Origin: Owenia fusiformis
Taxonomy: Eukaryota
Direction: 5' to 3'
DNA length: 64,000 nucleotides
Assembly (NCBI GenBank): GCA_903813345.2
Contig: CAIIXF020000001.1
Coordinates: 23,870,001 to 23,934,000, forward strand
Shown here: positions 6,780 through 24,285 of the stretch, in pieces
Layout: every line of letters starts with the position of its first letter
Position numbering within the stretch: position 1 is the first letter of the stretch
The notes under the pieces: model-generated
Databases searched by the model: none
What the model was told of the DNA's origin: nothing
Seen by the model: the letters and a program-made list of their open reading frames with translations, nothing else
Translations under genes and position numbers: made by a program

Positions 6780-7644
6780 CACATGCAAATAGTGATACAT
6801 TATGAAAATACTTTTATGGATTATATGGTGTCCATCATAGCAATTGAAACACTAAGTGTCAATCAGTGTGAGAATTTTGATGCAGTATTTTGTACAGCAA
6901 TTGTATTTGTGTTTTATACCAGGACTAAGCTTAAGGACTATACTATGGAACAGGCGCATAAGAAGGATGGCAATTTAGACTACTAGTATACTGAAGACAG
7001 GCGTATAATAAGAATGACAATTTACAATAGAACATTTGCATAAGATGGATGACAATTTAAACAACTAATCATAACTCAGATAATATCCATTGTCTGATGA
7101 AATAAATGAACATTGAAAGTCAGAATTCATAAAAAAAATATTGCTGATTTAATGTAAAGTCTTTCAAATGAATTTTTCCTGCATGCAACATGTTCACTGT
7201 GATAACATGTTAATAAGCATAGTAGCTAATAAATGAATAGTGATTATGTGAACGTAACATATTTTCATAGTTGATGATGAATGTTGGTTTAGACCAGGAA
7301 AATATTATATACTTTTTTATATTTATTTCAGGTAAAGATCATAAGCTTTTATTTACTTTCAGTAAACAGTATTTTTTTCAGTAAACAGAATCTGTTAACT
7401 TATTGAAAGTTGTAAGAATTTGTTTCAGTCGCCGACCACTGGACGCCAACCGCTGAACACTGTTTCAAAAAAGTGCTAATCATGGCTTGATGTTATCAAT
7501 CAATACCATTTAACACTGATATAATGAGATAACTACATGTGCTATGTAATATGATTACTTGACGTATTAAAATAATTATATTCCATTTTAAACATCGTCA
7601 TACACTGTACAAAGGTACCTTTTATGTAATACATTTAGTTCAGA

Positions 7645-7822
7645 CTGGTGTGAAAGAAATTATGGTCCCCCAGGGATTATGGTCCCCTTTCTTAATGGCC
7701 CTTACTGGCCCTGATTGTGTATAAGATAATGAGGGAAAGAGTTCAGTTGTATTTTTGTCACCATATAAATCAATGGAGAGTAGGACCATAATATTAAAGG
7801 ACCTCCTACCCTTTTACACCGG
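7645..7822. mobile_element. ~178-bp MITE, copy 1
   Basis: Short TIR C(T/C)GGTGT(G/A)AAAG. Reverse-complement copy at 8652-8824. Confidence 0.7.
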
Positions 7823-8037
7823 TACATTCTATAGGAAAATCATGTGCTTTCAACAGTCTCTTGAAAGCCCATGGAACAATGTTTGATTGGATTTTAAAAA
7901 ACATTGTTTTGAAATAGCCAATAAATTCCCTACAGCATATACAGGGTGGGTCAAAACAATACACAATTTGAAGGGAATTTGAAATTAATGTGAATTACGT
8001 ATATCCAAAACAGATCACAACAACGGCTACATGGGTT

Positions 8038-8135
8038 ACACATGGTACTAAAACTCCACGAAACACACGGTACTAAAACTCCATGGTAAACAAGGTACTA
8101 ATACTCGACAGTACACATGGTGGTACTAATAATCT
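8038..8135. repeat. Degenerate ~25-bp minisatellite
   Basis: About 4 copies of ACA(T/C/A)GGTACTAA(A/T)ACTC. Confidence 0.6.
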
Positions 8136-8651
8136 ACACCTGTGGCATGAGAACATAACCAATTATGCGAGAGAGAGAGAGGTACAAGCAAAGTATACGA
8201 TCAAATTGATTTGGAAATCATTGCATGCATAAAAATCATGATTTCAGTTGATGATAGATATGCGTCATTTGAGATACAAATTATGTCCTTTTATCAATAC
8301 TCAAACTGGCATTTGTTTCGAAGATAAAATAACGAAGGATGAAAACATGAAAACTACTACAAAAATAATATAAATGGATTTGTACAACTGATCAAGAGTA
8401 ATAATGTCAAATATGAAAATCATCCAATGTTCCGAACCCATTAACTGTTAACGTTCGGACGATCAGGTTAGGTTTTGATTTTCCATTCCTTAAATATTCC
8501 GAAAACCTAGGTAGATCTAACATGAAAAATTCTATTTATTTCTCACATGACGACATTCCTACCCCGGTTGACTTTTATGGGTAGGAAAATAACTTGCTTG
8601 AACTAAACTATGCCCCAAAGTTGATGTCTATGGAACCAACAATTACTGAAT

Positions 8652-8824
8652 CAGGTGTAAAAGGGTAGGAGGTCCTATCAAATTATGGTCCTACTTTCCA
8701 TTGATTTATATGGTGACCTATATACAACTCTTTCCCTCATTATCTTATACGCAATCAGGGCCAGTAAGGGCCGTTAAGAAAGGGGACCATAATCCCTGGG
8801 GGACCATCATTTCTTTCACACCGG
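8652..8824. mobile_element. ~173-bp MITE, copy 2 (inverted relative to 7645-7822)
   Basis: End-to-end reverse-complement similarity to 7645-7822. Confidence 0.7.
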
Positions 8825-9478
8825 CCATGATAGGTGGCGCTAGTGAAGATTTGATTCAGAGACTAGCTCCTGCCCACTGTTACTGTTTATTTAACAGTTA
8901 AAGTGGTATGACCATCGTCGAAATCATAGAAGCCGATTCCTTTAATTTTACGCTTTAAAATGATCTTACTTGTATATCCATTCCATTCAGGTAGATTCGG
9001 TTTTGAATTTGCGCATCTTGAAGTTGAGACCCAGTACAGGCCCGTGGTCGGAAACGATGCCATTTTACTCTAAACCGATGAAAATATATGAACCATGCAA
9101 GAAAACAGTGAGTTTTGAATGCTTCGATAAATCGAGATAAATTAGAAATTTGATGATTGAGGTTGAATTGTTTCAATAAGCGTAATATGCTAAAAACGCA
9201 AAATTTATATTCCATATTATGAGCAACAGTGTACGAACTCATTCGTCAGACATCGTTTACTATTACATATAAGCTAGCAGTTTGTAGTCGCTGTTTCAAA
9301 CCAAGAACTAATTAATATCAGTATTAACTGCAGCAACCTTTCCATATTCTGCATTAGCAAATCCATTCCGAGCATCATTTCAGCGGAGACACTGCTTCTA
9401 ATTTGATAAATTCATTCAAGGATTTTAAAGACAACTCATGGAACATATACTCGTATTCATCGTCTTTACGAAACTAAA

Positions 9479-12400
9479 ATGACCGACTGGCGGTTTGATT
9501 CGAGTCAGCGTTACCTCGTGGATGGATTCGACAAGAAAGGTAACTTGTTAAAACGCCAAGGGAGAACGTCGAAAAATGGAGCGCTGTTCATTGACCAAAC
9601 GTTCCCTGCGGACATCAGTTCACTTACTTACGTATATAGCGGAGACGACAAATACGAACGCATGGTGTTTAAACGTCCATTGGTAAGTTTTTGCAATTAT
9701 ATGTGTTTATATAGTATATATATTCTTACTTTATATGGAAATGAATGTCTAGCTGATAAATGATACATTGATGATCTCTTGTATCTTTCGCGTAATAAGT
9801 TATATCTGGTTCAACGTGAAATTGATTACGTAAACCTGTATGTTGCCTACGACATTAATGCATTTAGCCATATGTGAAAGACAAGATATTATTTTTACAC
9901 CGTTAGAGTACGATGACTTCAGAGGGTGGATAAGAATATCTACCTTAAGGTATTTCTGATATATTTATGATACTGTACGTACTGTACCCACAGACAGTGT
10001 CAAGGTCGTGCATTATTGAGACAGTTTATATTCCGAGTTACATCACAAGATTAAAGCATATATTGAAATTGATTAAACATATTGCATGCAGTGTCATGTA
10101 GCTCTCAACAGATACGACTGATTAATCTAACACATTTTGCTATTTTAATTGACTATCTATATTAAGTGATGATGAACTACTGTGAATTATAATTCATGCA
10201 TGGAGCACGTTAATATACTAGCACTGCTTGATAATATGTCAGATCAATATGTGAAAATATAAAAAATGAAATACACTAGAATATTGGACAGATGAACAGC
10301 ATCTATAAATACAAGGAATTCTCAATTGTTTACTATATATATTTATTAATAATAGTAATGTACGTTAAGCTGTCTGAGTATCTGGCAATCTCATGTCTGA
10401 AAAATAGTTAAGATTAAATAATTTAATGGGTGTCGATCAGGTTTAAAGGCCCCATATGAAGCTCGTTTTTATGTCTAGTGTGAACTGACGCGTAATAAAC
10501 ACAGTTCACTTCCTTATTTTGCACAGAGCTCGCTTAATTTGTGCCCTTTGTGCTATTGAGATAAGACAACTTCTTGATAACTATATCTCCAAGTCGGCTT
10601 TTTCGTCTGGGATTGGGTCTGGGAAATTAGAATAACACGTTATTTTCATAACACAGCTGAGCCTCTTATTCAATTTCCACAACTGCTTTATATTTTCTCA
10701 ATTTTATTTCCATACATACAGTATAGTTGTTTGTGGGAATAATATTGATGCCGTATACGGAAAATGTTTCTGCTCACTATACGCAATGCAGTATAAAAGA
10801 CCAACATGCCCGAAGTCATATTTCGAATAAAAAAGATCCAGTGAGTAACAATGGCGCGTTTTCTTATCAAAACAAGAACACATATTTTCCTGTTATGACA
10901 ATTTGCAAAGTTCAACGTTCCAGCTACCTTGAGCTCTGTTTAGCGAGATGAGCGTAAGCTGGCTATGATTAAATTTACCCTCAAGCCCCTTAGAATTCCG
11001 TAGAATTGACTTTTGTGCCCGCTTTTGTGTTGCTACTTTATCATGGGACTTTGCCCCTTTGACACTATTTGTGACTTCATGGAACCTTGACACGTCGTTA
11101 TTGGCTATGCTGTAATAAGAGGAGGGAAAGCCCCAGAGATTTACCGATGGCAGACGTACATGTATTACGTCTCTTACGTACCACCTTCGTTTGCGCAAAT
11201 TTTCACCAGTTAGTTTTCGAATCTAACGCGTCGTTGTGATCTTTTAATCGATGTAAGCATGTTCCTAACATCTTTCTTTATCTTGATGTGAAATAACAAG
11301 CTATGATATTGTTTAACAAGCCAGAAATTAACATAATATTATTCGAAGCGTTATTAGAAATTTTTTAATCCGCCATTTTTGTTTGTCGTTTTGACCAATC
11401 AGAGACGTGGGTCATCTCAATACAGGTTTACATTATAAGCGTATGTCATCTTTGAACTCTGGGGTTAATCCCCCTAGATCTTTGCAGTAATGAAGACGGG
11501 CATTCCAACGTCATTCGCTTGTTTCCAAGTTGTTTTTGCATGATCAGTATTTCTATTTAAAATCGCATCCTACTAACGCAAGTTCAGACATGACAATTTA
11601 GATTCAGTTAGCCTATCATTCTTTACGAAATCTTTGTCTCTGAAGATAAGTGCTGGAAACTAACAGAACGAGAATTCAATACAAGGTCACACTGGCTTTT
11701 GCAGTTGCCGTTGTCAGAGCATCCAGATAATTTGAGTTTTTAGTTAGTTAATATCGAACAATTACCTAAATATACTTAGTCAGTTAGAATTACTTATAGT
11801 TAGTGCGTTGCTAAATTACCTTTATGGAGGTGTGTGTACATTGCACAATCATATGTCGCCATGGTAACGAATCTGCAGTCACTTTGTCAGTACCATTTAG
11901 TCATTTGATTTTTAATTTAAAAGGGGCCAATAAAAAAAACAATTGCAAATGATGCCGCAAATTAAAACTTATTCAAACATGACCAGTAGAGACTCTCATT
12001 CCACGGGATTGCAGCATAGTCGTTCTCTAGATGAACGTAACGTCCGAGTGATATCTTCACCCGGGTGTCTTCATTCAGTGAAGAATTGCCCACAGTCGAC
12101 AGTGCAATAAGGAAAAGTACGCGCACTGTGTTGTATAAGCTGCTGAATTTCTTTTACAATATATATATTCTTTTTATATATAAGAGTATATAATTGGGTT
12201 CGTGGGCTTAGACCCCTCTAAGGTGAACTGGTTTTCTTCGCAAGCTCGGCAAATAATTACAAAATGATCTAATGTTCGACATTCGCACTGATGGGCGTCT
12301 TCACTTCATCTCGAGCCTTCTTCATTATCCATTTCCGTGTCACGGAAATGGCAATGACCTCGAGCTTTCCTAATCATTATTTACATCTTATATTCCAATA

Positions 12401-15400
12401 ATACTAATCCACGAAACTAATTAATCACTATAATTTTTTATCTTAGTGACAGTATGGTTTTAGACCTATTAGAGCAAATAGAAAAGCGGAATACCGATAT
12501 TCTAACCTCTCTACTTCAAACAACAATGTACATGCTGCTAGATATATCATGGAGGTCCATGATATATCGGAACAGTCAAGCACTTTAGCAAGTTATTTTG
12601 AGACAGGAAATATTCAGGAATAAAGACTCTTTGAATTCTTTGATTTCAGAATGATATCAATCATCTACATACAGCTTATTCCTTATGAGTTCCTTGCCAA
12701 GCCTGAATCTAAGTGTAACTGATATCATGAGACATTACATAGAATTTCTTTTTAGCATACCTATTTACGTCGATAATTATGTAATATTATGAGTCTTCGA
12801 GATCCACTTTCAATCATCATTTGTCATATCTCGATATGAATGAGTATTTAATTTGAGACCTGCTGGATGGTAATAAGATGGCGGGATTGCATCTGATAAC
12901 TTGATAACGATTTATGTGAAACAAAAGTAGCCAATCATTTTGATTTATCTGACCCCTTCTGTTGTTTCTCTTCGGGGGCGTGGCAAACCACAATGATAGC
13001 CAACAGTCTTGCTTCAAGACAGTTTACCCCCTGTATTATGCCCCCCCCCCCAGATCCGCCACTGGGGGGAAGGAGGGCAGTCTTGAGGCAAGACTAGATA
13101 GCCAATTCTGATTATACAAATCGTCCCATTATTTCCACGTTGTTACAATTGCATTTTTGCTGACATTGAGAAATCAGAGGTCATTGAGTCATTTTTAAAA
13201 ACCTATTTTTTCGAGATCGTCCCATTATTTCCACAATGTTATTACTATTAGTCAAGATCAAAATTATGTATCTGATTGGTTCTGCTGCCTACCCGAACGG
13301 ATATGACAAGGTGGGTCTAATTTTTTTCCTCATTTTGAACTGATGTGGCACTGGATCCATTTAAATGGACGTCAGAAATGAATTCCTCGTGAAAAATTGA
13401 GAAAGATAGTATACTTATCTCAAAACCTGTAAAAAGTGAGTTATAACAATGTCAGGCACCCTGTCTGATCAACTTATTAGGGCCTCATGTCACATTTAAC
13501 TGATCTTGAAGTTGTCGCATTAAACCAACTGACGTTGTTCGTAAATGGGTCTCATAGCTGTCACAATATGTCCACCGATGACGTACGTAAAAAAATCTGT
13601 CACATTAGGGCAAATAGCGCCGTGTGTAACCTGTAGTCTTATTCAAAGCTGTTATAAACCAGGTACACCTAAAATATTATATAAGTAAATAGAATGATCG
13701 TGCAATATCGACAATAAAAGTCGAGACGGAAAAGGTATTCAGTGTGTCAGTTGGAGACCTTTGAAGACATTGCTTGGAGTGCTTTATCCTGGTATGCTTT
13801 CTAGTGATTAATTAAATACAACGACGATGACAGAGATACGTCATTGAAGACAAAAACAAGAGATCGCCTTAAAAGTGAAGGTCTTCGCTGTCCAAAAGTA
13901 CCATCAATAGCTTTGTCCTCAGTGTTTAAAAACATGATAATCATCGAAAAACGTCAATATGTCAGTAATACGTCTGTGCTTTATCCTCGGTATATGCTTG
14001 TTCTAGTGATGAACAAAATGCGACGGCGATGACGTAATTTGAGACACAAACAAGATATCACCTTAAAATGGAGGTCTCACTGTCTATAATAACTATCATC
14101 AAGGCTTTAACATGACAAAATGTCACCACCTAGTTGCTCATAATATTATGAGTTCAATCTGAAGTCGGATTTGAACTTCTGAGAACTTGTAGATGATTTT
14201 GAAAAAATCTGGTCAATTTATTACCTTGAGAGAAGGCCAGTGAAGGTCAAATCTCAAATTTAAAGTCAGATTTGAACTTTTGAGAACTTGTAGATGATTT
14301 TGAAAAAAATTCTCAATTAGGAGCAAGTTGAAAAAATACCCTTTTGACCTTTTTTGACCTTGAGAAGGTCATTGAAGGTCAAATCTAAAGTCAGATTTGA
14401 ACCTCTGAGAACTTGAAAAATGAAGTTATTGGAAGTTTTAATAATATGTCACCACTTTTATGTAATCAGTGCTAAATGCATAATAATTGTCTAAATACTT
14501 CCAAGATACATTTTTTGTCCAACGAACACACTTATCCGTGTCAAACCTAGTATCATCGGGCGTTGCACACAGTATATTAGCTTTAGCTAGGTGATTACTA
14601 TCCCTTGATTCAGATTTGTATTCTAGTACTCATCACATTTTGCAAACACAAAATGCTCAGTTATATTCTCTATTTTATCAATCGAAAAAGAAGTTACCAC
14701 ATGGCAAACAATAGTTTACTTTGCTGTCGGTTATGTATGTGTGTATGTTCCAGTAAATATGTTAACACTAGCTATCTTTTCTAGCATACTTTTTGGAGGC
14801 ATAATGATATCTATAATTGTATTTCTTGCTTCATTCAATTCATATAAATTGTAATATATTTTTATATTATACAACTTTTGATTTTAGCACTGATATGCCC
14901 TTTTATGGGTATCAAGTGCCAACACTGCTAATGCAATACTAAATGAATATGATAATAAATAAATTAAAAAAAACAAAAAAAAATCTAATGTGGGGCTTTC
15001 CGAAAGTAATTTTAGATGCAATCTCAAATGTCTTGGTCTGTTTAATCCCCATGAACATAGCATTTTTGTCCATGATCCATGTAGTTCTAGATTGAAACGT
15101 ATCTTGTTACAATATTTTACACATAATTTGTCAAATTAAATGTCAATATCATCATAATATGGTCATGAGAGTCATCCTTCTAGATAATCGATGTGTTTTA
15201 AGCCAACTTGGCTATCCGTTAACAATTCCGTAACATTTTGCCCATAGCGTATTACTGATAGCTTAAATAGCTCATTGGTTATCATCCTGATTGATGACTC
15301 CAAAACAAATAGCAATCACATGTATAAATCGTAATGACCATAATGTAATTTCCAAGATGATTGCATTTTTATATCACAACAAATAAAATGTATAAACTTT

Positions 15401-18400
15401 TTATAATTTCATCAAACCAAGCATGGGCTTTCTAGTTGAAAGCCCATGAACCAAGCAAAGAATATCCAATACAATATGGTATATTGGCTAATAGTGTACG
15501 CACACATTTTCAAGGTTTATCACATATAGCAATTTCTTTATTTCTAAATTAATCAGAGATTCTCTGTTGGATAAAATGTACGATGCGTATTAGAATTGCG
15601 TTAACAATGTACATGTATACTTTAACTTCTCATTTTCTTCCAGGAAATCGACGAAGACGCGCAATTTAATGGTATAGATGGTACGATGAAAGTGTCATTG
15701 CCATGGCAACAGTGGAACGAGAGATTCTGGCTCCTATACGCCATAACAATCACTTCTCTCAATGCTAGATTTCTAGAAAAGGCTATTCCTGGCTACGGGA
15801 GCTTCAGACAGAGTTTTCAAAGGGATGTTTATACAGGTATTGTACTATACAGATAATGTATAGAGTGAATCAGGAATTTTACTGATTCAAAGTTTATTAT
15901 TCATGATTGGTCTCAAACTTTCTGAGATGACTAAGAATTGATGCAAGTTTTGTTCCATATCAGTCGTTTTTCTATGCATCGTGTTCAGGTGGCGGCCAAT
16001 CAAATCATCATGTTCATTTTAGTTTGAGACCAGTCATGCCAATAATAAAAAAATATGAGTTATTGCACTTTAAAATCAATAACATTTTTTGGCCCAGCCT
16101 GTATATTCAGCAATGTCTATTATTCACAACGATATCGTGAACTCATAATAGTGATAGTGATACTTTGGTTCTTTGCTAAAATGACTGTACAGTGAAAAAT
16201 ATCATTATCATTGTTGAAATATCATAGCTGTCTTATGTACCCTACTGCATATCGCGAAGTGCATATCGCGAAGTGAATAATCCTTCTATGAATTTTGTAA
16301 CTGCTAAACCTTTAGGGATATATTGGGAAATGCATAACCTGTAATAAATACTTACAGGTGACGTTGATTATCAAAAGGTATATATGCGATCGGATTGCTG
16401 TATTTTAATGAGGCATTACAGGTTACAAAAATAATGAAAACATTATACATGAATATATTATAGCGCGTTGGGGTGAATGGGGGTGCGTTGATGGTGAATC
16501 AGGGCATTTGGCCTATAAACACATGTCTTTTATATAATTCTATGTATTTATAATCTAGGTAAATTCCAATTCAAAATTTGGCGGTTTGGCGACTGGGAAG
16601 ATATCATAGTTGACGATCAGATTCCAACACTTGACGATGAACCTGCCTATTGTCCGGCACTGGGAGAATACAAAGAATATTGGCCATCACTTTTGGAAAA
16701 GGCGTATGCAAAGTAAGAAAATTCGCTAATTCGCTTCCATTTCGAATGTTCAGGAAAATTTTACCAACAGTGTCACGATTTAAGAGTACATTCTCCATTT
16801 TATAAATCTCTATGTTTTTTGTAAAAAAAACACCACTCGGTCCACTGTAAAATTTGTGTTTTTTTGTTTTAAATCCCTACCTCCCTATACATCCATTGTT
16901 AATCCCTAACACTACGTAAACATGTATGTTTTTACTTTTTAATCCCCACTACTTAAATCGTTTGTTTTAGATTTTAAATCACGAGGAAATTTTTCAATAT
17001 GTGATCCATATTACACATGCTTAATGGGATCTTCATTGTATCAACAATACGCTATGGGTTAACCCAACTAATTAATTGTTATAACATGCGTATTCCCATA
17101 CAAACGATCTGTCTTCCAGAGAAAACTAAGATTTGTGGACATATTTTGCTATCATTCCATCATACCCCAGTATGTCCTCTGTCAGTCAAAAAAGTTTGAA
17201 TCAAAACTCCCCCCGAAAATCAAAAGATCTCACCTGTTGAAGACGCCATCTATAGAAAATGTCAAAAAATGTCATTCTGATTTTGACAGATGGAGGCAGG
17301 TCAAAAAGGTCACATATACTTTTTCATTCATGTACTTACCAAAATCCAACCACTGGTGATGCTAATGTAATGACAATAATTGGACTATATTTTTGTTTTT
17401 GTAATGCCGTCTATCCTTCCCACTCGGCGGAAGGATCAATAGGTTGTGTGTCTCCTATTATATTTTTGATTGGCACAGGATGTAACGCGCCTGCAAATTA
17501 ACCCTGCAAATTAATGATTGTCATCATAACCGATGATCTATAGGAACACCAAGTAAATGATTATATATTTGGTTTCCCCTGATGGTATGTGAGGAAAGGG
17601 GTAGTACGGAATATAGATCCAAGCTAAACTACAATTGCCAATGTAAACATGTACATGACCAAAATTCCAAAACAAAAAATCAATTATCGGTGAGGTTATG
17701 ATCTTTTTTATCGAAAATAACAATGATATTTTACATCAATGTAATTTTAGGTGTTTCAAAGCCTATGAAGTCCTTGAGCTAGGCAACCCTCTAAATGCAG
17801 TAACAGACTTTACTGGTGCAATTTGTGAGATGTTCAGAATCGATCAGCTGAAGAACGAAGACCTTTTTCACCTGCTGCATAAGTCTTGTATTAACAGGTA
17901 AGGCTAATGACCTAGGACTGTCACGGTTTTTACACGTATTATCGATGACGTCCTTGGTATTATGTATAAATCAAGTTGCTCGTTCGCGCTGTTGACGTGA
18001 TTTCGATGTCATGTCATCCTCATTGGCGTCATGTGTCTTGGGACCTGGTTAAATGTATATCATGCATGTCACGTTTTTTATCTATTGTTGGATGTTTTGC
18101 ACCGGATTCAGCACTTGGTTTCCATGGTAATGAATGTTTTAATATCCTGTCACATAAGTATGTTTCATATGGGAATAACGTTACCTCAGTATTTAAGAAC
18201 TTAGAACATCTTCACTATCTAATTGTGTTTATAATTAGACGAAATAATATCACTTATCACGTCACCTTCGTGTGCACTGCAGGTTACCTGGTAATCAATG
18301 ACATTATCAGATGTGAATTGATATCATCTTGATTCACAAGGTTTCAGTTACTCCAACTTTATTGTTACATGAAGATGGATATTATCCTGTTTCATTATTT

Positions 18401-21400
18401 ATGAGCATGTGGTAGTATAATTGTCATAGGCTGGTACATCTACCTGATCCTACTGATTTAGAACCTAGTTCATTATTTGTGAATGTTCTAGCTTACGAGA
18501 GTGATATAACTTTCCCAAATACACAGCAGAAATTAAAACGGAATGCCAGATCAATGACCAAGTGTTTCTATGGTTATGCTCAAGATACCATTTTTCAGAT
18601 CTATGATAACGTGCTGGAGAAAGATATCAAAGCCTTCCCAAGACGGTGTAGAAATCCTAGCAACACCATCCAGAGTTGTTCCCATAGTAACTAAATTGTC
18701 AAATCAGAGCGGTACAGATGACAACCAGAGAGGTCATCTTCACATTATAACGTCTGCCGCTAAGGTATCTAAGAAAAAATTGATTCTGGAAAATATAAAG
18801 CACTGATAAAGAAACAATGCTCAATTTTACATATGTTTTATATACTGCCACTATCAGAGAAAGTACAAATATAGTACAATGTATAACTTTATAAAAATAG
18901 TAGTCAGTGAAGTGTTAAACAATAGCTATGGCCAAAAATATAAATTCTCTATAGAAGGTATAGGAGAAATGCAAGACATATCACACTTTAGGAAAACATA
19001 TGTATCAAGAGAATAAGGAATATTTATGAGCTATACCAACAGAAAATGATGTTGGATATACAGTTCCAATTATGCTTATTGTCTCTTTGTTTTTCAGTTT
19101 CCACTGAAGGATGGATGTGTTAAGCACATGCTCCGGATTAAGAACCCCTATGCAAAATATGTGAAGCTGCAGTCAAACTTTTCTGACAGGTAAGGTTATA
19201 CTTTCTTTGTTAAAGGTAAATGCACATTGAAATTTGAACTTCTAATACCCGTCGATAGAAAAACTAGTCACTAAACTTTTTACCAAAATGGCTACAACAT
19301 TGTACACACGTTAGGTTTTAAAACTGTATAATATAATGAGTCTAATCGTCTACAATTGTATCCAATTGAATCTTAAATATTAGGATAAGAATGAATAAAT
19401 GAAGCATGTGCTTATGATTAACATTTTACCACCCTGAAAAGTTAAGAACCCAAATCTAGGAGCAATGATTTTAAAAGCTGAAAACGATCCGTATACTTTT
19501 GTTTAATCAAGGCGTTCCACTGTTTATAGTAATAACTGTGCTTGGAGCAACTTTGACAAGGATTTCATGAGGAAGTATGACCCGCTTGGAAGTAAAGACA
19601 TCAATGAGTGCTGGATGTCATTGGAAGACTTCTATTGTCAGTTTGATGGTATTGTATTGTGTAGTTCGACTGAACCGTTTAAAGATGGGAGATATACTCA
19701 AGAGCGAAGAGTTCGAGATACAAACACTGACCTATATGAAACAGATTCTGAGGGATTTGGATGTGTAGTCGAAGACAATAATCGCCACTTTAAAGGGCAC
19801 TATACAATCGCCCAGGAGAATCCAGTAAGTTCCAGGCGGGAAAATATACAAAGACTTGCTCACGTTAAACATTGCTGGACACAGCGTAGACAATCGTCAA
19901 GTGATTTTACAGCTGTCGGTCATGAGCACACCGCCAAGAGAGCAGTTGGCGCTGCGCACATACCACAAATGTTACGAATCAGTATGGACGATTCAATGAC
20001 TAATGTATGTCAAACACCGCCCACTCCGAATAAACAGTGCCTATCACAAGGCCACTCACTTTCCTCCTTTTCCTTTGGGGGTTCAGCACAAAACCTCTTA
20101 GCTAAAGGAGAGTCTAAACATTCCGTTGGTAGTGCTCAAAGTGTTTCTCACATCTTCATGTCTTTTACCCAAAGCCCAAAATTACAGGATCAACGAGATC
20201 ATAACTCGGATGCTGCGTTTAATGACCTTCACAGTATGGAGGACACATTGAATCATACTCCACAGAGGAGGCATTCTCGACCTTGCCTAAGGCCAGTCAA
20301 GAAGGAGGAACTCTCAGAAAAGGAGCTCAAGTATAAATGTAATTCTACCTTATTTGAGTCCAGAATGGACCATTTCACTTCACACGGAAGCTGGAAACAA
20401 CTTCTGTTTCACAAAGGGGAATGGGGAAATACAGGTTGGTATTTTTCACTTATCTGCAATGATGGAGATGTTTATCATGTGTGATATTGTTTTAAAAAAT
20501 ATATATAGTTTTTATGTGCTTCAAGTATCTCCCCGAGTATTTCAAGTAAGATTCCCAAAAATACAACCCAATTTCTCCGAACGATTGTCAACATGCCTCT
20601 TATAAATGAACCGATCACCCATTGTGTATCTTACTCTTTATTTTTATGAATTAACATCATGCTCTGCTTTAAGATACACCACACGAATGTAAAATGGGAA
20701 GATTCGAGAGAAGCTGTCGCATTCTTTTGACTTTATCTAAACCAGACGAAGCACCTAGCGGCAAGACAATATCACCAAGAGTCCATTCTGCTAAAACCCA
20801 TACTATCATCTCCTTAATGCAAGACTATAGTCAAGGCAGTCGAATTGTCAACACATTTGTCTCCAAGATTGGATTTGAAGTCTATAGAGTAAGTTTTTTG
20901 CCTCATACATCCCTCTCCATCTCTGTCCCTTCATCTGCGATGCACATTGATTGATGCTACGGACATCAGAATGTTTATAAATTTACACTTTATTACAGCG
21001 GTTCAACCAAGTTATCTCACTACTCGGGGGAAACCCCATCTTCGTTTACTCGGCTCCCGTCGATGAACGCAGTGAAGACCGAGCGTGCGAAGATGGGGAA
21101 ACCCATTGAGTTGTACTTTAAAAACACTTTAAATCAATAGTACCCAGGGCAGAAGTCACGAATGTTTAATTCCCTTTTTAATTATACACATATAATATAT
21201 ATGATTAATAATCTTCAATCACATTTACACAAACTTCAAAGTATTTTTATTTGGCCCACATCTCATTTACTTCTTTAAACATGAAGATCATTTGACAAAA
21301 TTGTCTAATTGAACTTGTCCATTATTGAAAGAAATATGAAGGACGATTAAAATAAAAATTGAATAGGGGTCAAAGAAAATATTTTGAAGTTTATCCTGTT

Positions 21401-22080
21401 TAGAAATTATAAAAAGTATTCAGAAACGAAAAGGATTATTAGGAAAATAGAATCACACCACCAGTTCTGTTCTGGCTACTACTAGCTACTGCAATCTGAA
21501 TTCAACCATTCATTTTACACAGATTCACAACCCAGTAAAAGATGAAAAGAAAACTCTCCAGAAACTTCATATGGTTGCCGAAAAGACCTCACAACACGAG
21601 GAGAGAGAAGTGACTCTACGTTTAAACCTTGATCCTGGTAGTTATTTTATTGTACCATATATCAAGGGAGGCTCTAAGAAAGGCCGGTTCTTGTTGAGGG
21701 TGCTTGGGGATAGCGACCACAGCAGTTCATTGGTGCAGAATGGATGGTAAATATGAGTTTTAGCTATTTGAAAACATGTTTGAGATATCTGATCAGATAT
21801 GGACGATTTTGAAGATTTAACATGCAAAATTGGCCAAACTCACTGGCTATAGAAAGATATGTCCATCTTTTCAAACGTATTGCCACAATCGAAGAATTTT
21901 CATGGTGACATGTCGGACAAACTGTTTGTCATCTGTTAGGAATATTTGAATGTTGTCAAATTGTGACACTTAACTTTCCTCAGTCTTTTTAAAGCATCTT
22001 TAAGTTATGCCTGAATGAAAATAATTAGAAAGTTTTGCCCTAATTTTTTCATTTTTCTTCATTCCAGTGTGATATCATAG
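9479..22080 (+). CDS. Calpain-family protein (CysPc + insertion + C2-like/CBSW domain), predicted catalytically inactive, C-terminal CaaX; ~770 aa, 10 exons
   Basis: Exons 9479-9682, 15644-15836, 16559-16712, 17751-17897, 18599-18764, 19098-19189, 19530-20434, 20674-20888, 21523-21746, 22068-22080; all GT-AG and phase-compatible (2313 nt). Calpain motifs: LFIDQTFPA, FKRP, WRFGDWEDIIVDDQIP, YWPSLLEKAYAK, DFTGA, RGH, LRIKNPY, ECWMSLEDF, IGFEVY, REVTLRLNLDPGSYFIVP, GRFLLRV. Confidence 0.9.
13779..14108. repeat. Diverged tandem duplication (~197-bp period)
   Basis: GTGCTTTATCCT...TTCTAGTGAT...AAACAAGA...CCTTAAAA block occurs at ~13779 and again at ~13976. Confidence 0.6.
14150..14420. repeat. 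Degenerate tandem repeat with TGACCTTGA/GAAGGTCAA motifs
   Basis: Three copies of AAGTC(A/G)GATTTGAAC..TGAGAACTTG interleaved with ACCTTGAGA..GG.CA.TGAAGGTCAAATCT. Confidence 0.7.
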
Positions 22081-22336
22081 GAAAAATACAAAAGTCAAAG
22101 TTCGACGCTAAACAATATTTCAGAGGATGTTCCTTACGTCCAGAATTAAATTTAATATACAGTGCTGATGTAAATTGTGAATGATACTGTGAGAAAGAGA
22201 CCTAGTCTCAAATATATATTTTTATCTTGATATTCTATATAGCGGGTCCGAGCATAATGTTAGTGCAAACGCCTCTAAGAAAAGGCCCATTAGTCAAACT
22301 AGCGCGTCTCCATTGGGAGAATATAAATATATACAG

Positions 22337-22764
22337 AATATCACATCATTTTGAGTGATATCATTTTTATCGCCGAGTTGATATCAAATAAAATTATCAA
22401 CACGAGTGAGCGAAGCGAATGAGTGTTGATATTTGATATCTACGAGGCGATAAAATGATATCACGAGAAATTATGTGATATTGGGTTTATCCCATGATTA
22501 CAATCACCTTGTGATGTTCTGATCCAATTTCCAGGACACTGGCAGACCTATTTTCTCAAAGAGAATAAATTATCTGACCTATTTTCCAACAATATTGTGG
22601 CGCGAAATGCAAATGTGATATCACACGGATATGCGTGAGATAAACGATATCACACGCATATGAGTTTGATAAACGATTTTCTGGAAAATATCACACGGAT
22701 TGCAATAATATAAGAGATATCAATAGCTGTTATTGTACAGATAACACATTAATCGTGGGATAAA
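22337..22764. mobile_element. Non-autonomous hairpin element (Crypton-like architecture)
   Basis: ~145-nt imperfect hairpin at 22337-22482 with a GAGCGAAGCGAA loop. Second inverted pair TTTATCCCATGATTA (22486-22500) / TAATCGTGGGATAAA (22750-22764). Internal ATATCACACG repeats. Family label is inference. Confidence 0.5.
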
Positions 22765-23498
22765 TAAAGATATCACTTGGAATGTGATGGATAATGGATA
22801 TCCATAGAAAAATGATTAGCAATGGAATCGACAATTAAGCCTAAAGACAACGGGTATCAAATGACGTGTGTACTGTATGTACTTGGTACATTTGTGAATT
22901 GGAAAGTGAATGTGGACATAAATATCAACCGTGATGTGATGGAAGCTGCTCGTTTTGATATGAAACCAACCAAGTCATGTTTTCAAGATGATTACAATGT
23001 GGCGTATAATACTTTTATGTTCGTAATAGCATATAAATAAGCGATATTATACACTTAATTAACAGGCATACATTTGGATCACAGGGATTTTTATATAACA
23101 TAGCCTATAGATGATATTATATTCAAGATGTGTCTGCATGATTATGAGTTCAGTGTCTCTTTTACATAACGTTACTATAATGACCTTGATATATAGAACA
23201 TTATTATGTCTTTCATATCATATTCAGTAATGACCAGTTACATGAAGGTACCACATGGAGGGGACAATTATTGGAAACAATGAGGGGCCAATTATATGAA
23301 ACAATGGCATCTGTTTGACCATTGTATCTTGTGATATATTTAATAGTGATATTAGTGATATTTGGCCTAACTGGCCAAAAAATCAGCATGTCTATGTTAC
23401 CATAAATGATGAGTACAATATTACATAAAGTTATGTAAGATATAAAGTAGAAATACAAAAAGTTAAGTACCACTATCTACAGCAAGCTACATATTTTG

Positions 23499-24285
23499 TT
23501 AAATAAGTTGTATATAGCAGCAGTGCTTTCCCCTTGTTTTGAGATATTTATGGTTTAGTTGTGTTGTAATGAAATCCTGACCATTGTATTTCATTAATCT
23601 AACATTTACTCTAAAAAGAACCCACTCTTGTTCTAGGTTTTCACAAGAGAATAGATAATGTACTATATTTTCCTCTTCAACATAACATAAAGCACAAATT
23701 CTAGATTTTGTCACATGGTTTAATGTTTTAAGCCCTGTACTCAGTGCAATGTGGAAGGACCATTCCTTGAAGGTGTTGCTTTCCAAAATATGCACGAGAT
23801 ACGCAGTATCGAGTGTTGATTTTAGGAAATAACGCCTGGAAGAAATGGTCATTCCACAATGCATTGAGTCTTGAGCTTGAATTCTTCTAACACATTGTAA
23901 AATATTCTCCAGCATGTCACTTAAAAGATACGAAATCACTAAAAGAACATATTTTCAATGAAAGATTTTGCAAGTGTCAAATTTGCAAACCATCAATTTC
24001 AATATGTAGATTCAAGTTGTAACCTTGACAACCACATAAGGAGTAACCTTAGATGCGGTGATTGGGGATCTAATGCACTGCGGTTCTATGAAATAATGTG
24101 TTTGGGTTGGCTGAAATCGGACACACCTTTACTGGCTATTTGTGATAATATCAAATACAGTAACAAAATGATTTTGCTTCCAATACAGTGGATGAGGGCG
24201 TTTGATTTAAGGATTTAAGCCCTGGATTCAGTGCATTGTGTGCTGAATCATTCCATTGAGGAAATTGGACAAAATCAATAAAAGA
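23499..24285 (-). mobile_element. Degenerate non-LTR retrotransposon ORF2 3' fragment
   Basis: Minus-strand ORF 23499-23939 contains CALCYVEEENIVHYLFSC (C-x2-C-x8-H-x4-C), the C-terminal zinc-knuckle of LINE ORF2 proteins. Upstream boundary is approximate. Confidence 0.65.

What the first reader, a model, noticed from the sequence alone, without database searches (positions are those of the whole stretch)
9479..22080. Intact but catalytically dead calpain carrying a C-terminal CaaX prenylation box
Seen: ten exons splice in frame with no stops. The calpain active-site motif QG-x-LGDCW reads QQWNERFW, with Phe (TTC, 15725-15727) at the nucleophile position. His (RGH, exon 5) and Asn (KNPY, exon 6; conserved Trp changed to Tyr) remain. 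The protein ends ...VQNGCVIS* with no penta-EF-hand. Known: Cys-less calpains exist (CAPN6, Drosophila CalpC), and CaaX with X=Ser is a farnesyltransferase signal. Inference: this is a lipid-anchored calpain pseudoprotease acting as a membrane scaffold or regulator. I do not recall this architecture being described.
Basis: partly seen in the sequence, partly recalled or inferred. Interest (0 to 1): 0.8.

Follow-up and report, generated by a model that had tools for sequence, protein, structure and literature searches.

The report
Dead calpain with conserved farnesylation tail
This annelid gene encodes a calpain-like protein that has lost its catalytic cysteine but ends in a lipid-attachment signal, and molluscs keep the same combination, which points to an undescribed membrane-tethered, non-enzymatic branch of the calpain family.

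Summary
Ten GT-AG exons (9479-22080, + strand) join into one 770-codon frame. That frame contains the deposited Owenia fusiformis protein CAH1773812.1 (741 aa, 5'-partial) letter for letter. Pfam finds a full Peptidase_C2 core and one Calpain_III domain. No PEF exon and no alternative active-site exon exist in the 64 kb. TTC at 15725-15727 puts Phe at the nucleophile position. His and Asn remain, and the protein ends CVIS.

The gene is not a one-off or a pseudogene. It belongs to a well-separated annelid and mollusc family: one clade with SH-aLRT 100, and at least 590 bits against at most 226 for other calpains. All 16 members that cover the site lack the Cys. All 11 loci with a complete C-terminus end C-x-[I/V/L]-S. 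Four more have Trp at the Cys position, as expected from read-through of the intron that splits the Cys codon.

Farnesylation, membrane tethering and a non-catalytic role are inferred, not shown. Owenia RNA reads were too sparse to confirm any junction. Four literature searches found no native CaaX calpain. I judge it a new variant of a known kind, with moderate to high interest.

The parts
9479..9682 (+). Coding exon 1, starting at the first ATG after an in-frame stop. It encodes the N-terminal region and the family-specific SSLTYVYSGDDKYE motif.
   Evidence: The motif is nearly invariant in the family alignment. The deposited model begins 5'-partial at 9566.
15644..15836 (+). Exon 2, the active-site helix region. 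It reads QQWNERFW where classical calpains read QG.LGDCW.
15725..15727 (+). TTC = Phe96, at the position of the catalytic Cys.
   Evidence: One search gives the coordinates. Searches give the alignment. The column is F,A,G,K,G,G,G,D,Y,K,S,G,S,T,D,K across the 16 family members that cover it.
16559..16712 (+). Exon 3, part of protease core PC1 (WRFGDW...LLEKAYAK).
   Evidence: Pfam Peptidase_C2 6.4e-14 on this exon alone..
17751..17897 (+). Exon 4, the end of PC1. It holds the family-invariant Cys209 (TGT 17824-17826) in TGAICE, where classical calpains mostly have Ala, Ser or Thr.
18599..18764 (+). Exon 5. It encodes a low-confidence inserted loop, then RGH with His279 (18735-18737) at the catalytic His position.
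19098..19189 (+). Exon 6. It reads RIKNPY, with Asn304 (19143-19145) at the catalytic Asn position and Tyr306 in place of the conserved Trp.
19530..20434 (+). Exon 7. It encodes the end of PC2, then a linker of about 224 aa predicted to be disordered and rich in Ser, Arg and Thr (19690-20361), then the start of the C2-like domain.
   Evidence: AF2 pLDDT is below 50 for P0001 residues 344-567. A linker of 173-317 aa is present in all family members where it could be measured.
20266..20283 (+). RRHSRP, an R-x-x-S-x-P motif about 30 residues before the C2-like domain.
   Evidence: The motif sits at the homologous place in 14 of 17 family sequences. Its background rate is 0.4 per 1000 aa in the 179 fetched proteins. 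Reading it as a basophilic-kinase or 14-3-3 site rests on recalled motif knowledge.
20674..20888 (+). Exon 8, C2-like domain (Calpain_III).
21523..21746 (+). Exon 9, the end of the C2-like domain and a flexible tail. It ends with the TG of the CaaX Cys codon, followed by the donor TG|GTAAAT.
22068..22080 (+). Terminal 13-nt coding micro-exon. It supplies the T that completes Cys767, then Val-Ile-Ser and TAG. The acceptor is ...TTTTCTTCATTCCAG.
   Evidence: The deposited model uses the same end. Orthologous models end the same way.

Best explanation
The locus is an intact Owenia fusiformis gene. It belongs to an old, vertically inherited annelid and mollusc calpain paralogue family that has become a pseudoprotease with a C-terminal prenylation signal.

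Architecture, in order:
- a conserved N-terminal motif;
- a calpain PC1-PC2 core without the Cys nucleophile;
- a disordered Ser/Arg-rich linker of 170-320 aa that carries a conserved R-x-x-S-x-P motif;
- one C2-like (Calpain_III) domain;
- a short flexible tail ending C-a-a-Ser.

The last 13 coding bases lie on their own micro-exon, behind a phase-2 intron that splits the Cys codon.

Shown here: the gene structure, the calpain fold, the absence of the nucleophile across the family, conservation of the CaaX box, absence of a PEF domain, and monophyly of the family.

Inferred mechanism: protein farnesyltransferase attaches farnesyl to Cys767. The rule that X = Ser selects farnesyltransferase is recalled. 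The last three residues are then removed and the new C-terminus is methylated at the ER. That three-step pathway is described in passages of PMC12057185. The protein is thereby tethered to a cytoplasmic membrane face.

Once tethered, the catalytically dead but structurally kept substrate cleft and the C2-like domain would bind partners without cutting them. The protein would act as a decoy, trap or scaffold, probably under phospho-regulation through the linker motif. Retention of the last intron would give a non-prenylated ...GW form, so splicing could switch the anchor on and off.
For: Gene model: there is a unique ten-exon GT-AG solution of 770 codons that contains the deposited protein.

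Domains: Peptidase_C2 1.3e-51 over the full 297-position profile, and Calpain_III 5.7e-14.

Fold: AF2 gives a confident core and C2-like domain (179 residues with pLDDT of 90 or more). The best PDB matches are m-calpain, calpain-3 and calpain-1 (Foldseek E 1e-26 to 1e-17). phmmer's best hit is 1qxp_A at 3.9e-41.

Dead site: Phe sits at the Cys column, and 16 of 16 family members covering it are non-Cys, with nine different residues. The His column is H in 1 of 15 (Owenia), Y in 10, F in 3 and K in 1. The Asn column is N in 1 of 14 (Owenia), C in 11, S in 1 and Y in 1.

Family:
- The single-sequence search gives 7 representatives, the query included, at E of 7e-102 or better, and the next hit is 3e-65.
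- The family profile scores members at 590 bits or more and all other calpains at 226 bits or less.
- In a 55-row tree the 17 family rows form one clade (SH-aLRT 100, stem 0.92). Inside it a starred mollusc clade has the chiton as sister to the other molluscs and separate bivalve and gastropod groups, which follows the species tree.

CaaX across 17 loci:
- 11 end C-[V/L/I/K/A]-[I/V/L]-S: Owenia CVIS, Liolophura CLIS, Haliotis CIIS, Argopecten CVIS, Physella and Biomphalaria CKIS, Mytilus and Mizuhopecten CIVS, Pecten CIIS, Ruditapes X1 CILS, and an unnamed bivalve-like protein CAIS.
- 4 have Trp exactly at the Cys column followed by 0-8 residues (Patella, Lottia, Solemya, Dimorphilus). This is what reading through a TG|GT donor gives, as in Owenia itself (NGW, then stop).
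- 2 are truncated upstream.

The residues just before the box vary, so conservation is specific to the tetrapeptide. The tail (P0001 730-741) has pLDDT below 50, meaning it is flexible and accessible.

The CAIS protein is encoded whole on contigs of only 2.45-2.54 kb assembled from public runs. That fits spliced mRNA, though this is an inference from contig length.

The Owenia annotation was built from RNA-seq, Augustus and PASA, and 99.29% of its transcripts are reported as RNA-supported (passage of PMC9977687).
Against: No lipid modification, localisation or activity has been measured for any member.

In the two Owenia RNA runs laid (about 6% of each run read), mean exon depth was at most 0.42 and no junction read was listed. 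Splicing of the micro-exon in Owenia therefore rests on the deposited model and on splice signals.

Owenia lacks the Lys or Arg that most mollusc members have two or three residues before the Cys. It also has no second membrane signal, neither a polybasic stretch nor a nearby Cys. A farnesyl group alone would give only weak or endomembrane binding; this point is established knowledge, recalled.

Owenia keeps His and Asn, so a residual chemical role for the cleft cannot be excluded for this species.

The four Trp-ended models could not be checked against their genomes, because no eukaryote genomes were searchable here.

No codon-level dN/dS was computed.
Confidence: 0.68

Rival explanations
1. 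The CaaX box is present but is not used as a membrane anchor. The farnesyl, if added, would serve as a protein-protein handle, for example binding a prenyl-binding chaperone, or would target the ER or nuclear envelope only. Alternatively the conserved C-x-[I/V/L]-S is recognised by something other than a prenyltransferase.
For: There is no second membrane signal in Owenia (no polybasic run and no nearby Cys in the last 16 residues). The box is conserved, but its readout is untested.
Against: The motif meets every sequence rule for CaaX in 11 of 11 complete termini: Cys at -4, an aliphatic residue at -2, Ser at -1, exactly at the C-terminus, on a flexible tail. It does not end in a hydrophobic residue as class I PDZ ligands do (recalled).
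Confidence: 0.15
2. The true Owenia product ends ...VQNGW because the last intron is not removed, and the CVIS micro-exon is an annotation artefact.
For: The unspliced frame stops right after the Trp. Four orthologue models end with Trp at this position. No junction read was seen in Owenia RNA.
Against: The donor TG|GTAAAT and the acceptor with a long pyrimidine tract are canonical. Eleven loci from several annotation sources end with the same tetrapeptide pattern, which cannot arise by chance from intron or 3' sequence. A bivalve-like member with CAIS is encoded whole on 2.5-kb contigs. Both forms may coexist.
Confidence: 0.08
3. The protein is still a protease and uses another nucleophile, for instance the family-invariant Cys209 in TGAICE near the substrate-binding glycines, together with the retained His and Asn of Owenia.
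For: Cys209 (P0001 C180) is invariant in all 17 family rows, while classical calpains in the alignment mostly have Ala, Ser or Thr there. Owenia keeps His279 and Asn304.
Against: The His and Asn columns are replaced in every other member (Y, F or K; C, S or Y), so no shared triad exists in the family. The nucleophile column is unconstrained, with nine different residues.
Confidence: 0.05
4. The locus is a decaying or unexpressed pseudogene copy of a calpain.
For: RNA depth in the two runs examined is near zero. The catalytic Cys is lost.
Against: The locus has 770 codons without a stop across ten exons and nine canonical introns. Orthologues across two phyla share family-specific invariant residues and motifs (36 invariant columns). 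The tree follows the species tree with ordinary branch lengths. The deposited gene model passed an RNA-based pipeline (general statement only).
Confidence: 0.03

Closest known systems
Classical calpains (CAPN1/2/3/8/9-type; PDB 1qxp, 3bow, 1kfu, 6bdt)
   Same: Same PC1-PC2 protease-core fold followed by a C2-like domain III. Pfam Peptidase_C2 is matched full-length, and identity is about 27-31%.
   Different: No Cys nucleophile and no penta-EF-hand domain. A disordered insert of about 220 aa lies between the core and the C2-like domain. There is a family-specific N-terminal motif and a C-terminal CaaX.
'Truncated L' lophotrochozoan calpain family of Hastings et al. 2017 (PMC5650170; passages read)
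   Same: It is described as lophotrochozoan-only calpains consisting of a catalytic domain plus one C2L domain, which is the architecture and taxon range found here.
   Different: Identity with that clade could not be verified. AplTrunc2 is a transcriptome contig, and the accession table is a closed supplement. The main text contains no occurrence of prenyl, farnesyl or CaaX, and it does not state that this clade lacks catalytic residues.
Cys-less metazoan calpains: Drosophila CalpC-type (a tardigrade 'Calpain-C', P0027, was in the alignment) and vertebrate CAPN6 (recalled)
   Same: Calpain fold kept while the nucleophile is lost. They are presumed non-proteolytic.
   Different: The loss is independent. 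P0027 sits among classical calpains, far from this family, in the tree. It carries a PEF domain and no CaaX. That CAPN6 has a C-terminal C2 domain is recalled and was not tested here.
Kinetoplastid calpain-like proteins such as T. brucei CAP5.5 (review PMC4181241, passages read)
   Same: A proteolytically inactive calpain relative that is lipid-modified and links membrane and cytoskeleton. This is the closest functional precedent for a lipid-anchored dead calpain.
   Different: The lipid is N-terminal myristate/palmitate, not a C-terminal isoprenoid. The organism is a protist, and the domain set and origin are unrelated.
CaaX-box farnesylated proteins (Ras, lamins, PRL phosphatases)
   Same: A C-terminal Cys-aliphatic-aliphatic-Ser on a flexible tail. 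The expected processing is prenyltransferase, then Rce1, then ICMT (PMC12057185 passages).
   Different: The cargo is a calpain pseudoprotease. No such cargo was found in the literature searches.

Membership tests
Calpain superfamily (Pfam Peptidase_C2, MEROPS C2) | Full-length match to the calpain protease-core profile and the calpain fold | tested here: met
   PF00648 at 1.3e-51, profile positions 1-297 of 297. Foldseek top hits are all calpains. phmmer against PDB gives 19 calpain sequences.
Calpain superfamily, as an active peptidase | Cys-His-Asn catalytic triad | tested here: not met
   Cys is replaced by Phe96 while His279 and Asn304 are present. The protein is therefore a non-peptidase homologue.
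Classical calpains | C-terminal penta-EF-hand domain | tested here: not met
   Pfam finds no EF-hand in P0001. 172 calpain queries find no PEF-like exon anywhere in the 64 kb. A stop follows 13 nt into the last exon.
Calpains with C2-like domain III | Calpain_III domain after the core | tested here: met
   PF01067 at 5.7e-14, residues 600-723. AF2 predicts a beta-sandwich over 568-729 with pLDDT mostly above 70.
CaaX prenylation substrates | Cys exactly four residues from the C-terminus, an aliphatic residue at a2, and an X residue that selects the transferase | tested here: met
   The end is CVIS followed by a stop. The pattern is C-x-[I/V/L]-S in 11 of 11 complete orthologous termini. That X = Ser selects farnesyltransferase is recalled.
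CaaX prenylation substrates | Accessible, unstructured C-terminus | tested here: met
   pLDDT is below 50 for P0001 residues 730-741.
CaaX prenylation substrates | Isoprenoid actually attached, with -aaX cleavage and methylation | not testable with these tools
   This needs labelling or mass spectrometry.
'Truncated L' family (Hastings 2017) | Lophotrochozoan-only clade with a core plus a single C2L domain | tested here: met
   All named members are annelids or molluscs.
'Truncated L' family (Hastings 2017) | Clusters with AplTrunc2 and the other published members | not testable with these tools
   The sequences are in a closed supplement or a transcriptome. No Aplysia member was retrieved.
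CalpC / CAPN6-type dead calpains | Shared origin of the Cys loss with these groups | tested here: not met
   The family is a separate clade with SH-aLRT 100. The one CalpC-named row (P0027) lies elsewhere in the tree. CAPN6 itself was not in the data set.
Processed or decaying pseudogene | Frame disruptions, loss of introns or splice sites, no constraint | tested here: not met
   The frame is intact with nine canonical introns, and the family is conserved across two phyla. Codon-level dN/dS was not computed.

The most novel reading that the evidence does not exclude
Annelids and molluscs share an ancient farnesyl-anchored calpain pseudoprotease, already Cys-less in their common ancestor. It sits on a cytoplasmic membrane face and uses its dead cleft to capture calpain substrates or regulators, so that it locally buffers or directs classical-calpain signalling. 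A phospho-dependent R-x-x-S-x-P switch in the linker would control it, and retention of the last intron would give an anchor-less isoform. It would be the first prenylated member of the calpain superfamily and a new layer of calpain regulation in animals such as Aplysia, where calpain cleavage of PKC underlies memory.
Probability: 0.2. Interest if true: 0.8.

Novelty: new variant of a known kind. Interest (0 to 1): 0.62.

Why it matters
Calpains are studied as Ca-activated, cytosolic proteases that visit membranes transiently. A conserved branch that has given up catalysis and gained a permanent lipid-anchor signal would show that the calpain fold was re-used as a membrane-resident binding module. 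The branch is kept in at least chitons, gastropods, bivalves and two annelid lineages.

It offers a natural "substrate-trap" calpain for finding calpain partners in lophotrochozoan models such as Aplysia, Biomphalaria, oysters, scallops and Owenia.

It also carries an annotation lesson. The anchor is encoded on a 13-nt terminal exon that gene predictors miss: 4 of 17 models end in a read-through Trp instead. The feature is therefore invisible in many proteomes and is mislabelled as "calpain-3-like", "Calpain-9" or "calpain-1 catalytic subunit-like".

Tried and rejected
1. RNA confirmation of junctions. The look-up of sequencing runs listed no holder on record as RNA. On laying, the two "RNA?" contig runs X1 and X2 cover introns as evenly as exons, so they behave like DNA. 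The two raw RNA runs X13 and X14 (about 6% of each read) gave a mean depth of at most 0.42 in exon bins and no listed junction for this gene. This says nothing either way about splicing and little about expression.

2. Whole-genome search for paralogues. No genome is held for this window.

3. Alternative exon 2, or PEF exons. None were found with 172 calpain queries, so this idea is rejected.

4. A third homologue search with the family profile returned no new members beyond those already found. Brachiopod, nemertean, flatworm, Capitella, Crassostrea, cephalopod and Aplysia members were not retrieved. This is not evidence of absence, because the word-index and 50%-representative libraries are limited.

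5. Earlier findings of this scan: none share the sequence.

6. Literature. The searches were 'calpain'+'CaaX' (147 papers, top 20 listings seen), calpain/farnesylated/pseudoenzyme (73 papers, 15 listings seen), 'calpain'+'prenylation motif' (6 of 6 listings seen), and a mollusc calpain gene-family search that was unproductive. None describes a native CaaX calpain. Only titles and abstract starts were seen for these.

7. Ca-binding residues of the core. I compared the phmmer alignment with residue numbers recalled from the mu- and m-calpain core structures. Some acidic ligands appear kept (the Glu of ..EYW.., the Asp of ..FSD.., the Glu of ..NECW..) and others replaced. Because the ligand list is recalled, I draw no conclusion.

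8. ESM Atlas. The nearest cluster is a 57-member, mostly mollusc Peptidase_C2 + Calpain_III cluster. This is consistent with the family but adds nothing testable.
Full report
WHAT IS THERE

The window is from the annelid Owenia fusiformis. Exon 2 translated alone matches a deposited O. fusiformis protein at 100% identity (P0001, CAH1773812.1, 741 aa, 'unnamed protein product, partial'). A tblastn of P0001 on the window gives nine collinear blocks on the + strand between 9566 and 21744.

A script tried all GT/GC donors and AG acceptors within 25 bases of the block ends. It found exactly one way to join them that reproduces P0001. The result is ten coding exons:
- 9479-9682
- 15644-15836
- 16559-16712
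- 17751-17897
- 18599-18764
- 19098-19189
- 19530-20434
- 20674-20888
- 21523-21746
- 22068-22080

All nine introns are GT..AG, and there are 770 codons and then TAG. The ATG at 9479 is the first in its frame after a stop. It adds 29 residues to the 5'-partial deposited model.

DOMAINS AND FOLD

Pfam finds Peptidase_C2 over the whole profile (1.3e-51) and one Calpain_III domain (5.7e-14), and nothing else.

AlphaFold2 was run with a 23-row alignment. It gives a confident protease core (P0001 residues about 30-343) and a confident beta-sandwich (568-729). Three parts fall below pLDDT 50: a loop at 215-247, a 224-residue linker at 344-567, and the last 12 residues.

Foldseek's best solved matches are m-calpain, calpain-3, calpain-1, calpain-9, calpain-8 and calpain-5 (E 1e-26 to 1e-17). 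phmmer finds 19 calpain sequences in the PDB, the best being 1qxp_A at 3.9e-41.

THE ACTIVE SITE

Both the MAFFT alignment with five classical calpains and the phmmer alignment to 1qxp_A place Phe96 at the nucleophile position of the GDCW motif. Phe96 is TTC at 15725-15727. A one-residue insertion lies just before it.

His279 (18735-18737) lines up with the catalytic His of G-H-A/S-Y. Asn304 (19143-19145) lines up with the Asn of R-N-P-W. The Trp after it is Tyr306.

NO HIDDEN ACTIVE EXON AND NO PEF

These included classical ones with GDCW and PEF domains. Multi-query hits fall only on the nine known blocks.

The 6-kb first intron has one weak hit (14645-14794, E 0.053, two queries, matching residues 425-464 of the best query), which is not an active-site exon. 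Nothing downstream of 21747 reaches E below 0.11. So there is no alternative exon 2 and no PEF exon within 42 kb downstream.

THE C-TERMINUS

Exon 9 ends ...CAG AAT GGA TG | GTAAAT. The last exon begins after ...TTTTCTTCATTCCAG with T GTG ATA TCA TAG. Spliced, the protein ends ...VQNG-C-V-I-S. Unspliced, it reads ...VQNGW and then a stop. The Cys codon is thus split by a phase-2 intron, and the last 13 coding bases form their own exon.

IT IS A FAMILY, NOT AN ACCIDENT

Three searches give the same picture. They were a single-sequence search, an exhaustive phmmer over 1.84 billion representatives, and a family-profile search.

A small set of proteins scores far above all other calpains:
- 7 representatives, the query included, at E of 7e-102 or better, and the next hit at 3e-65.
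- members at 590 bits or more, all other calpains at 226 bits or less.

Named members are:
- molluscs: Liolophura (a chiton); Haliotis, Patella, Lottia, Physella, Biomphalaria and Lymnaea; Argopecten, Mizuhopecten, Pecten, Mytilus, Ruditapes and Solemya;
- a second annelid, Dimorphilus.

Two members are unnamed.

In a 55-row maximum-likelihood tree (quick search, 495 columns), the 17 family rows form one clade with SH-aLRT 100 on a long stem of 0.92. The annelid rows lie outside a starred mollusc clade. Inside that clade the chiton is sister to the rest, and bivalves and gastropods form their own groups. This is the pattern of vertical inheritance since the annelid-mollusc ancestor.

Terminal branches within the family (0.03-0.68, with one unnamed row at 1.37) are comparable to those of ordinary calpains in the same tree (median 0.44).

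CO-CONSERVATION OF THE TWO ODD FEATURES

Nucleophile column. 16 of 16 members that cover it are non-Cys: F, A, G x4, K x3, D x2, S x2, T, Y. Dimorphilus is N-terminally truncated. The variety of residues shows that the position is simply unconstrained.

His column. It is His only in Owenia (1 of 15). The rest are Tyr in 10, Phe in 3 and Lys in 1.

Asn column. It is Asn only in Owenia (1 of 14). The rest are Cys in 11, Ser in 1 and Tyr in 1.

So the family as a whole has no triad, and Owenia merely retains two ancestral residues.

C-terminus across 17 loci:
- 11 end C-x-[I/V/L]-S: CVIS x2, CLIS, CIIS x2, CKIS x2, CIVS x2, CAIS, and CILS in Ruditapes isoform X1.
- 4 end with Trp exactly in the Cys column followed by 0-8 residues (Patella ...AGW; Solemya ...TGWYV; Dimorphilus ...NAWYKTNL; Lottia ...AEW plus 8 residues).
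- 2 stop short of the tail (Lymnaea, and the MetaClust record).

A Trp there is what read-through of a TG|GT donor produces, exactly as in the Owenia DNA. I therefore read these four as models that missed the micro-exon. This is an inference, because their genomes could not be searched here.

No locus shows a complete, different C-terminus. The 10-12 residues before the Cys vary freely, so the constraint is on the tetrapeptide itself.

One CaaX-ending member (CAIS) is encoded whole on contigs of 2.45-2.54 kb from public run assemblies. That fits spliced mRNA.

OTHER CONSERVED FEATURES

The family alignment has 36 invariant columns. They include:
- a family-specific N-terminal block (SSLTYVYSGDDKYE);
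- a family-invariant Cys in TGAICE (Cys209, 17824-17826);
- CWR;
- several residues of the C2-like domain.

The linker between core and C2-like domain is present everywhere it could be measured (about 173-317 residues). It is poorly conserved, except for an R-x-x-S/T-x-P motif about 30 residues before the C2-like domain. The motif is present at the homologous place in 14 of 17 sequences (Owenia: RRHSRP, 20266-20283). Its background rate is 0.4 per 1000 residues in all 179 fetched proteins. From recalled knowledge, this resembles a basophilic-kinase and 14-3-3 mode-1 site. That reading is a lead, not a result.

HOW IT MOST LIKELY WORKS

Shown: an intact gene for a folded calpain core without a nucleophile, a C2-like domain, and a flexible tail ending in a conserved CaaX.

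Inferred:
- Farnesylation of Cys767. The rule that X = Ser selects farnesyltransferase is recalled.
- Removal of -VIS and carboxyl-methylation at the ER. These three steps are as described in passages of PMC12057185.
- Attachment to a cytoplasmic membrane face.

Because the cleft-forming parts of the core stay conserved while the chemistry is gone, the protein most likely binds calpain-type substrates or regulators without cutting them. It would act as a trap, decoy or scaffold.

The long disordered linker would let the core reach away from the membrane-proximal C2-like domain. Its conserved phospho-motif suggests regulation. Retention of the last intron would yield an anchor-less isoform. Ruditapes also has an annotated isoform X2 without the box.

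Weak points of this reading:
- No member has been studied experimentally.
- Owenia has no second membrane signal.
- My RNA sampling could not confirm the junctions.

The Owenia annotation pipeline was RNA-based, and 99.29% of its transcripts are reported as RNA-supported. I could only read that general statement (PMC9977687, methods passage), not the record for this gene.

RIVALS

- Intron-retained, non-prenylated product only: 0.08.
- Prenyl used for something other than membrane anchoring, or the box read by another system: 0.15.
- Residual protease with another nucleophile: 0.05.
- Pseudogene: 0.03.

The evidence for and against each is given in the Rival explanations section.

COMPARISON WITH WHAT IS KNOWN

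By fold and profile this is a calpain-superfamily member, but it fails the catalytic-triad test. It is therefore a non-peptidase homologue.

It is not a classical calpain, because it has no PEF domain. It is not related by descent to the CalpC-type dead calpains: the one such row sits elsewhere in the tree.

Hastings et al. 2017 (PMC5650170) described a lophotrochozoan-only 'Truncated L' clade with a catalytic domain plus one C2L domain. This may be the same family, but I could not verify that, because the sequences are in a closed supplement. The main text has no occurrence of prenyl, farnesyl or CaaX. The passages on that clade do not mention loss of catalytic residues.

The nearest functional precedent is kinetoplastid CAP5.5. 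It is an inactive calpain-like protein anchored by N-terminal myristate/palmitate (review PMC4181241, passages). That is a different lipid, a different end of the protein, and a different origin.

Searches for calpain with CaaX, farnesylated, pseudoenzyme or 'prenylation motif' returned no paper on a native CaaX calpain among the listings I saw.

VERDICT

Novelty: a new variant of a known kind, combining a calpain pseudoprotease with a CaaX lipid-anchor signal. Interest is 0.62. It would be higher if prenylation and a regulatory role were shown.

Noticed in passing
window 44591-63315 (+): A large lipid-transfer-protein gene (apolipophorin/vitellogenin-like) lies downstream of the calpain gene. 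ORFs match the end of Vitellogenin_N and Vit_open_b-sht (3.7e-29) at 45078-45686, and VWD (2.5e-12) at 61003-61470. Between them is a single 2200-codon open exon (50258-56860) that looks repetitive by eye. This explains the higher GC and the strong A-over-T skew of 50-58 kb.
   Followed up: partly
window 17824-17826 (Cys209; P0001 C180): This Cys in the TGAICE segment is invariant in all 17 family rows. The classical calpains in the alignment mostly have Ala, Ser or Thr at this place (one tardigrade row has Cys one position earlier). It lies three residues after the conserved Gly of the FTGG-like segment. Its role is unknown.
   Followed up: partly
window 20266-20283 (RRHSRP) and the homologous place in 13 other family sequences: A conserved R-x-x-S/T-x-P short motif sits in an otherwise fast-evolving disordered linker, about 30 residues before the C2-like domain. 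It is present in 14 of 17 sequences. It may be a phosphorylation or 14-3-3 site, which is a reading from recalled motif knowledge.
   Followed up: partly
window 7567-9267, 10969-11535, 13804-14937, 16639-17772, 20608-21174, 22309-22875, 23443-24000: These intronic and flanking stretches have very high summed depth in all four runs, many loose ends and internal joints. They look like multi-copy repeats or transposable elements, some of them transcribed. An ORF at 23499-23954 (-) has a weak zf-RVT (reverse-transcriptase zinc-binding) match, E 9e-4.
   Followed up: no
window 9000-22000, DNA-like runs X1 and X2: There are many single-base differences and small indels relative to the window in introns, for example a 16-base insertion after 10006 and several deletions around 12165-12177. 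Of the differences listed (40 of 299 base differences and 12 of 51 indels were shown), none fell in a coding exon. This is ordinary allelic variation.
   Followed up: no
P0029 versus P0174 (Ruditapes philippinarum isoforms X2 and X1): The annotated isoform X2 diverges inside the C2-like domain and lacks the CaaX, while isoform X1 ends CILS. This hints that anchor-less splice forms exist in the family.
   Followed up: no
P0009 (unnamed MetaClust record, 994 aa): This record contains an exact internal duplication of about 130 residues of the protease core, beginning FNIWQYGKW. It ends 12 or so residues before where the CaaX would be. It is probably an assembly or prediction artefact, and it has the longest branch in the family (1.37).
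   Followed up: no
Names given by sources to family members: Members are labelled 'calpain-3-like', 'Calpain-9', 'calpain-1 catalytic subunit-like (LOW QUALITY)' or 'uncharacterized'. None of the names reflects the missing nucleophile or the CaaX end.
   Followed up: no
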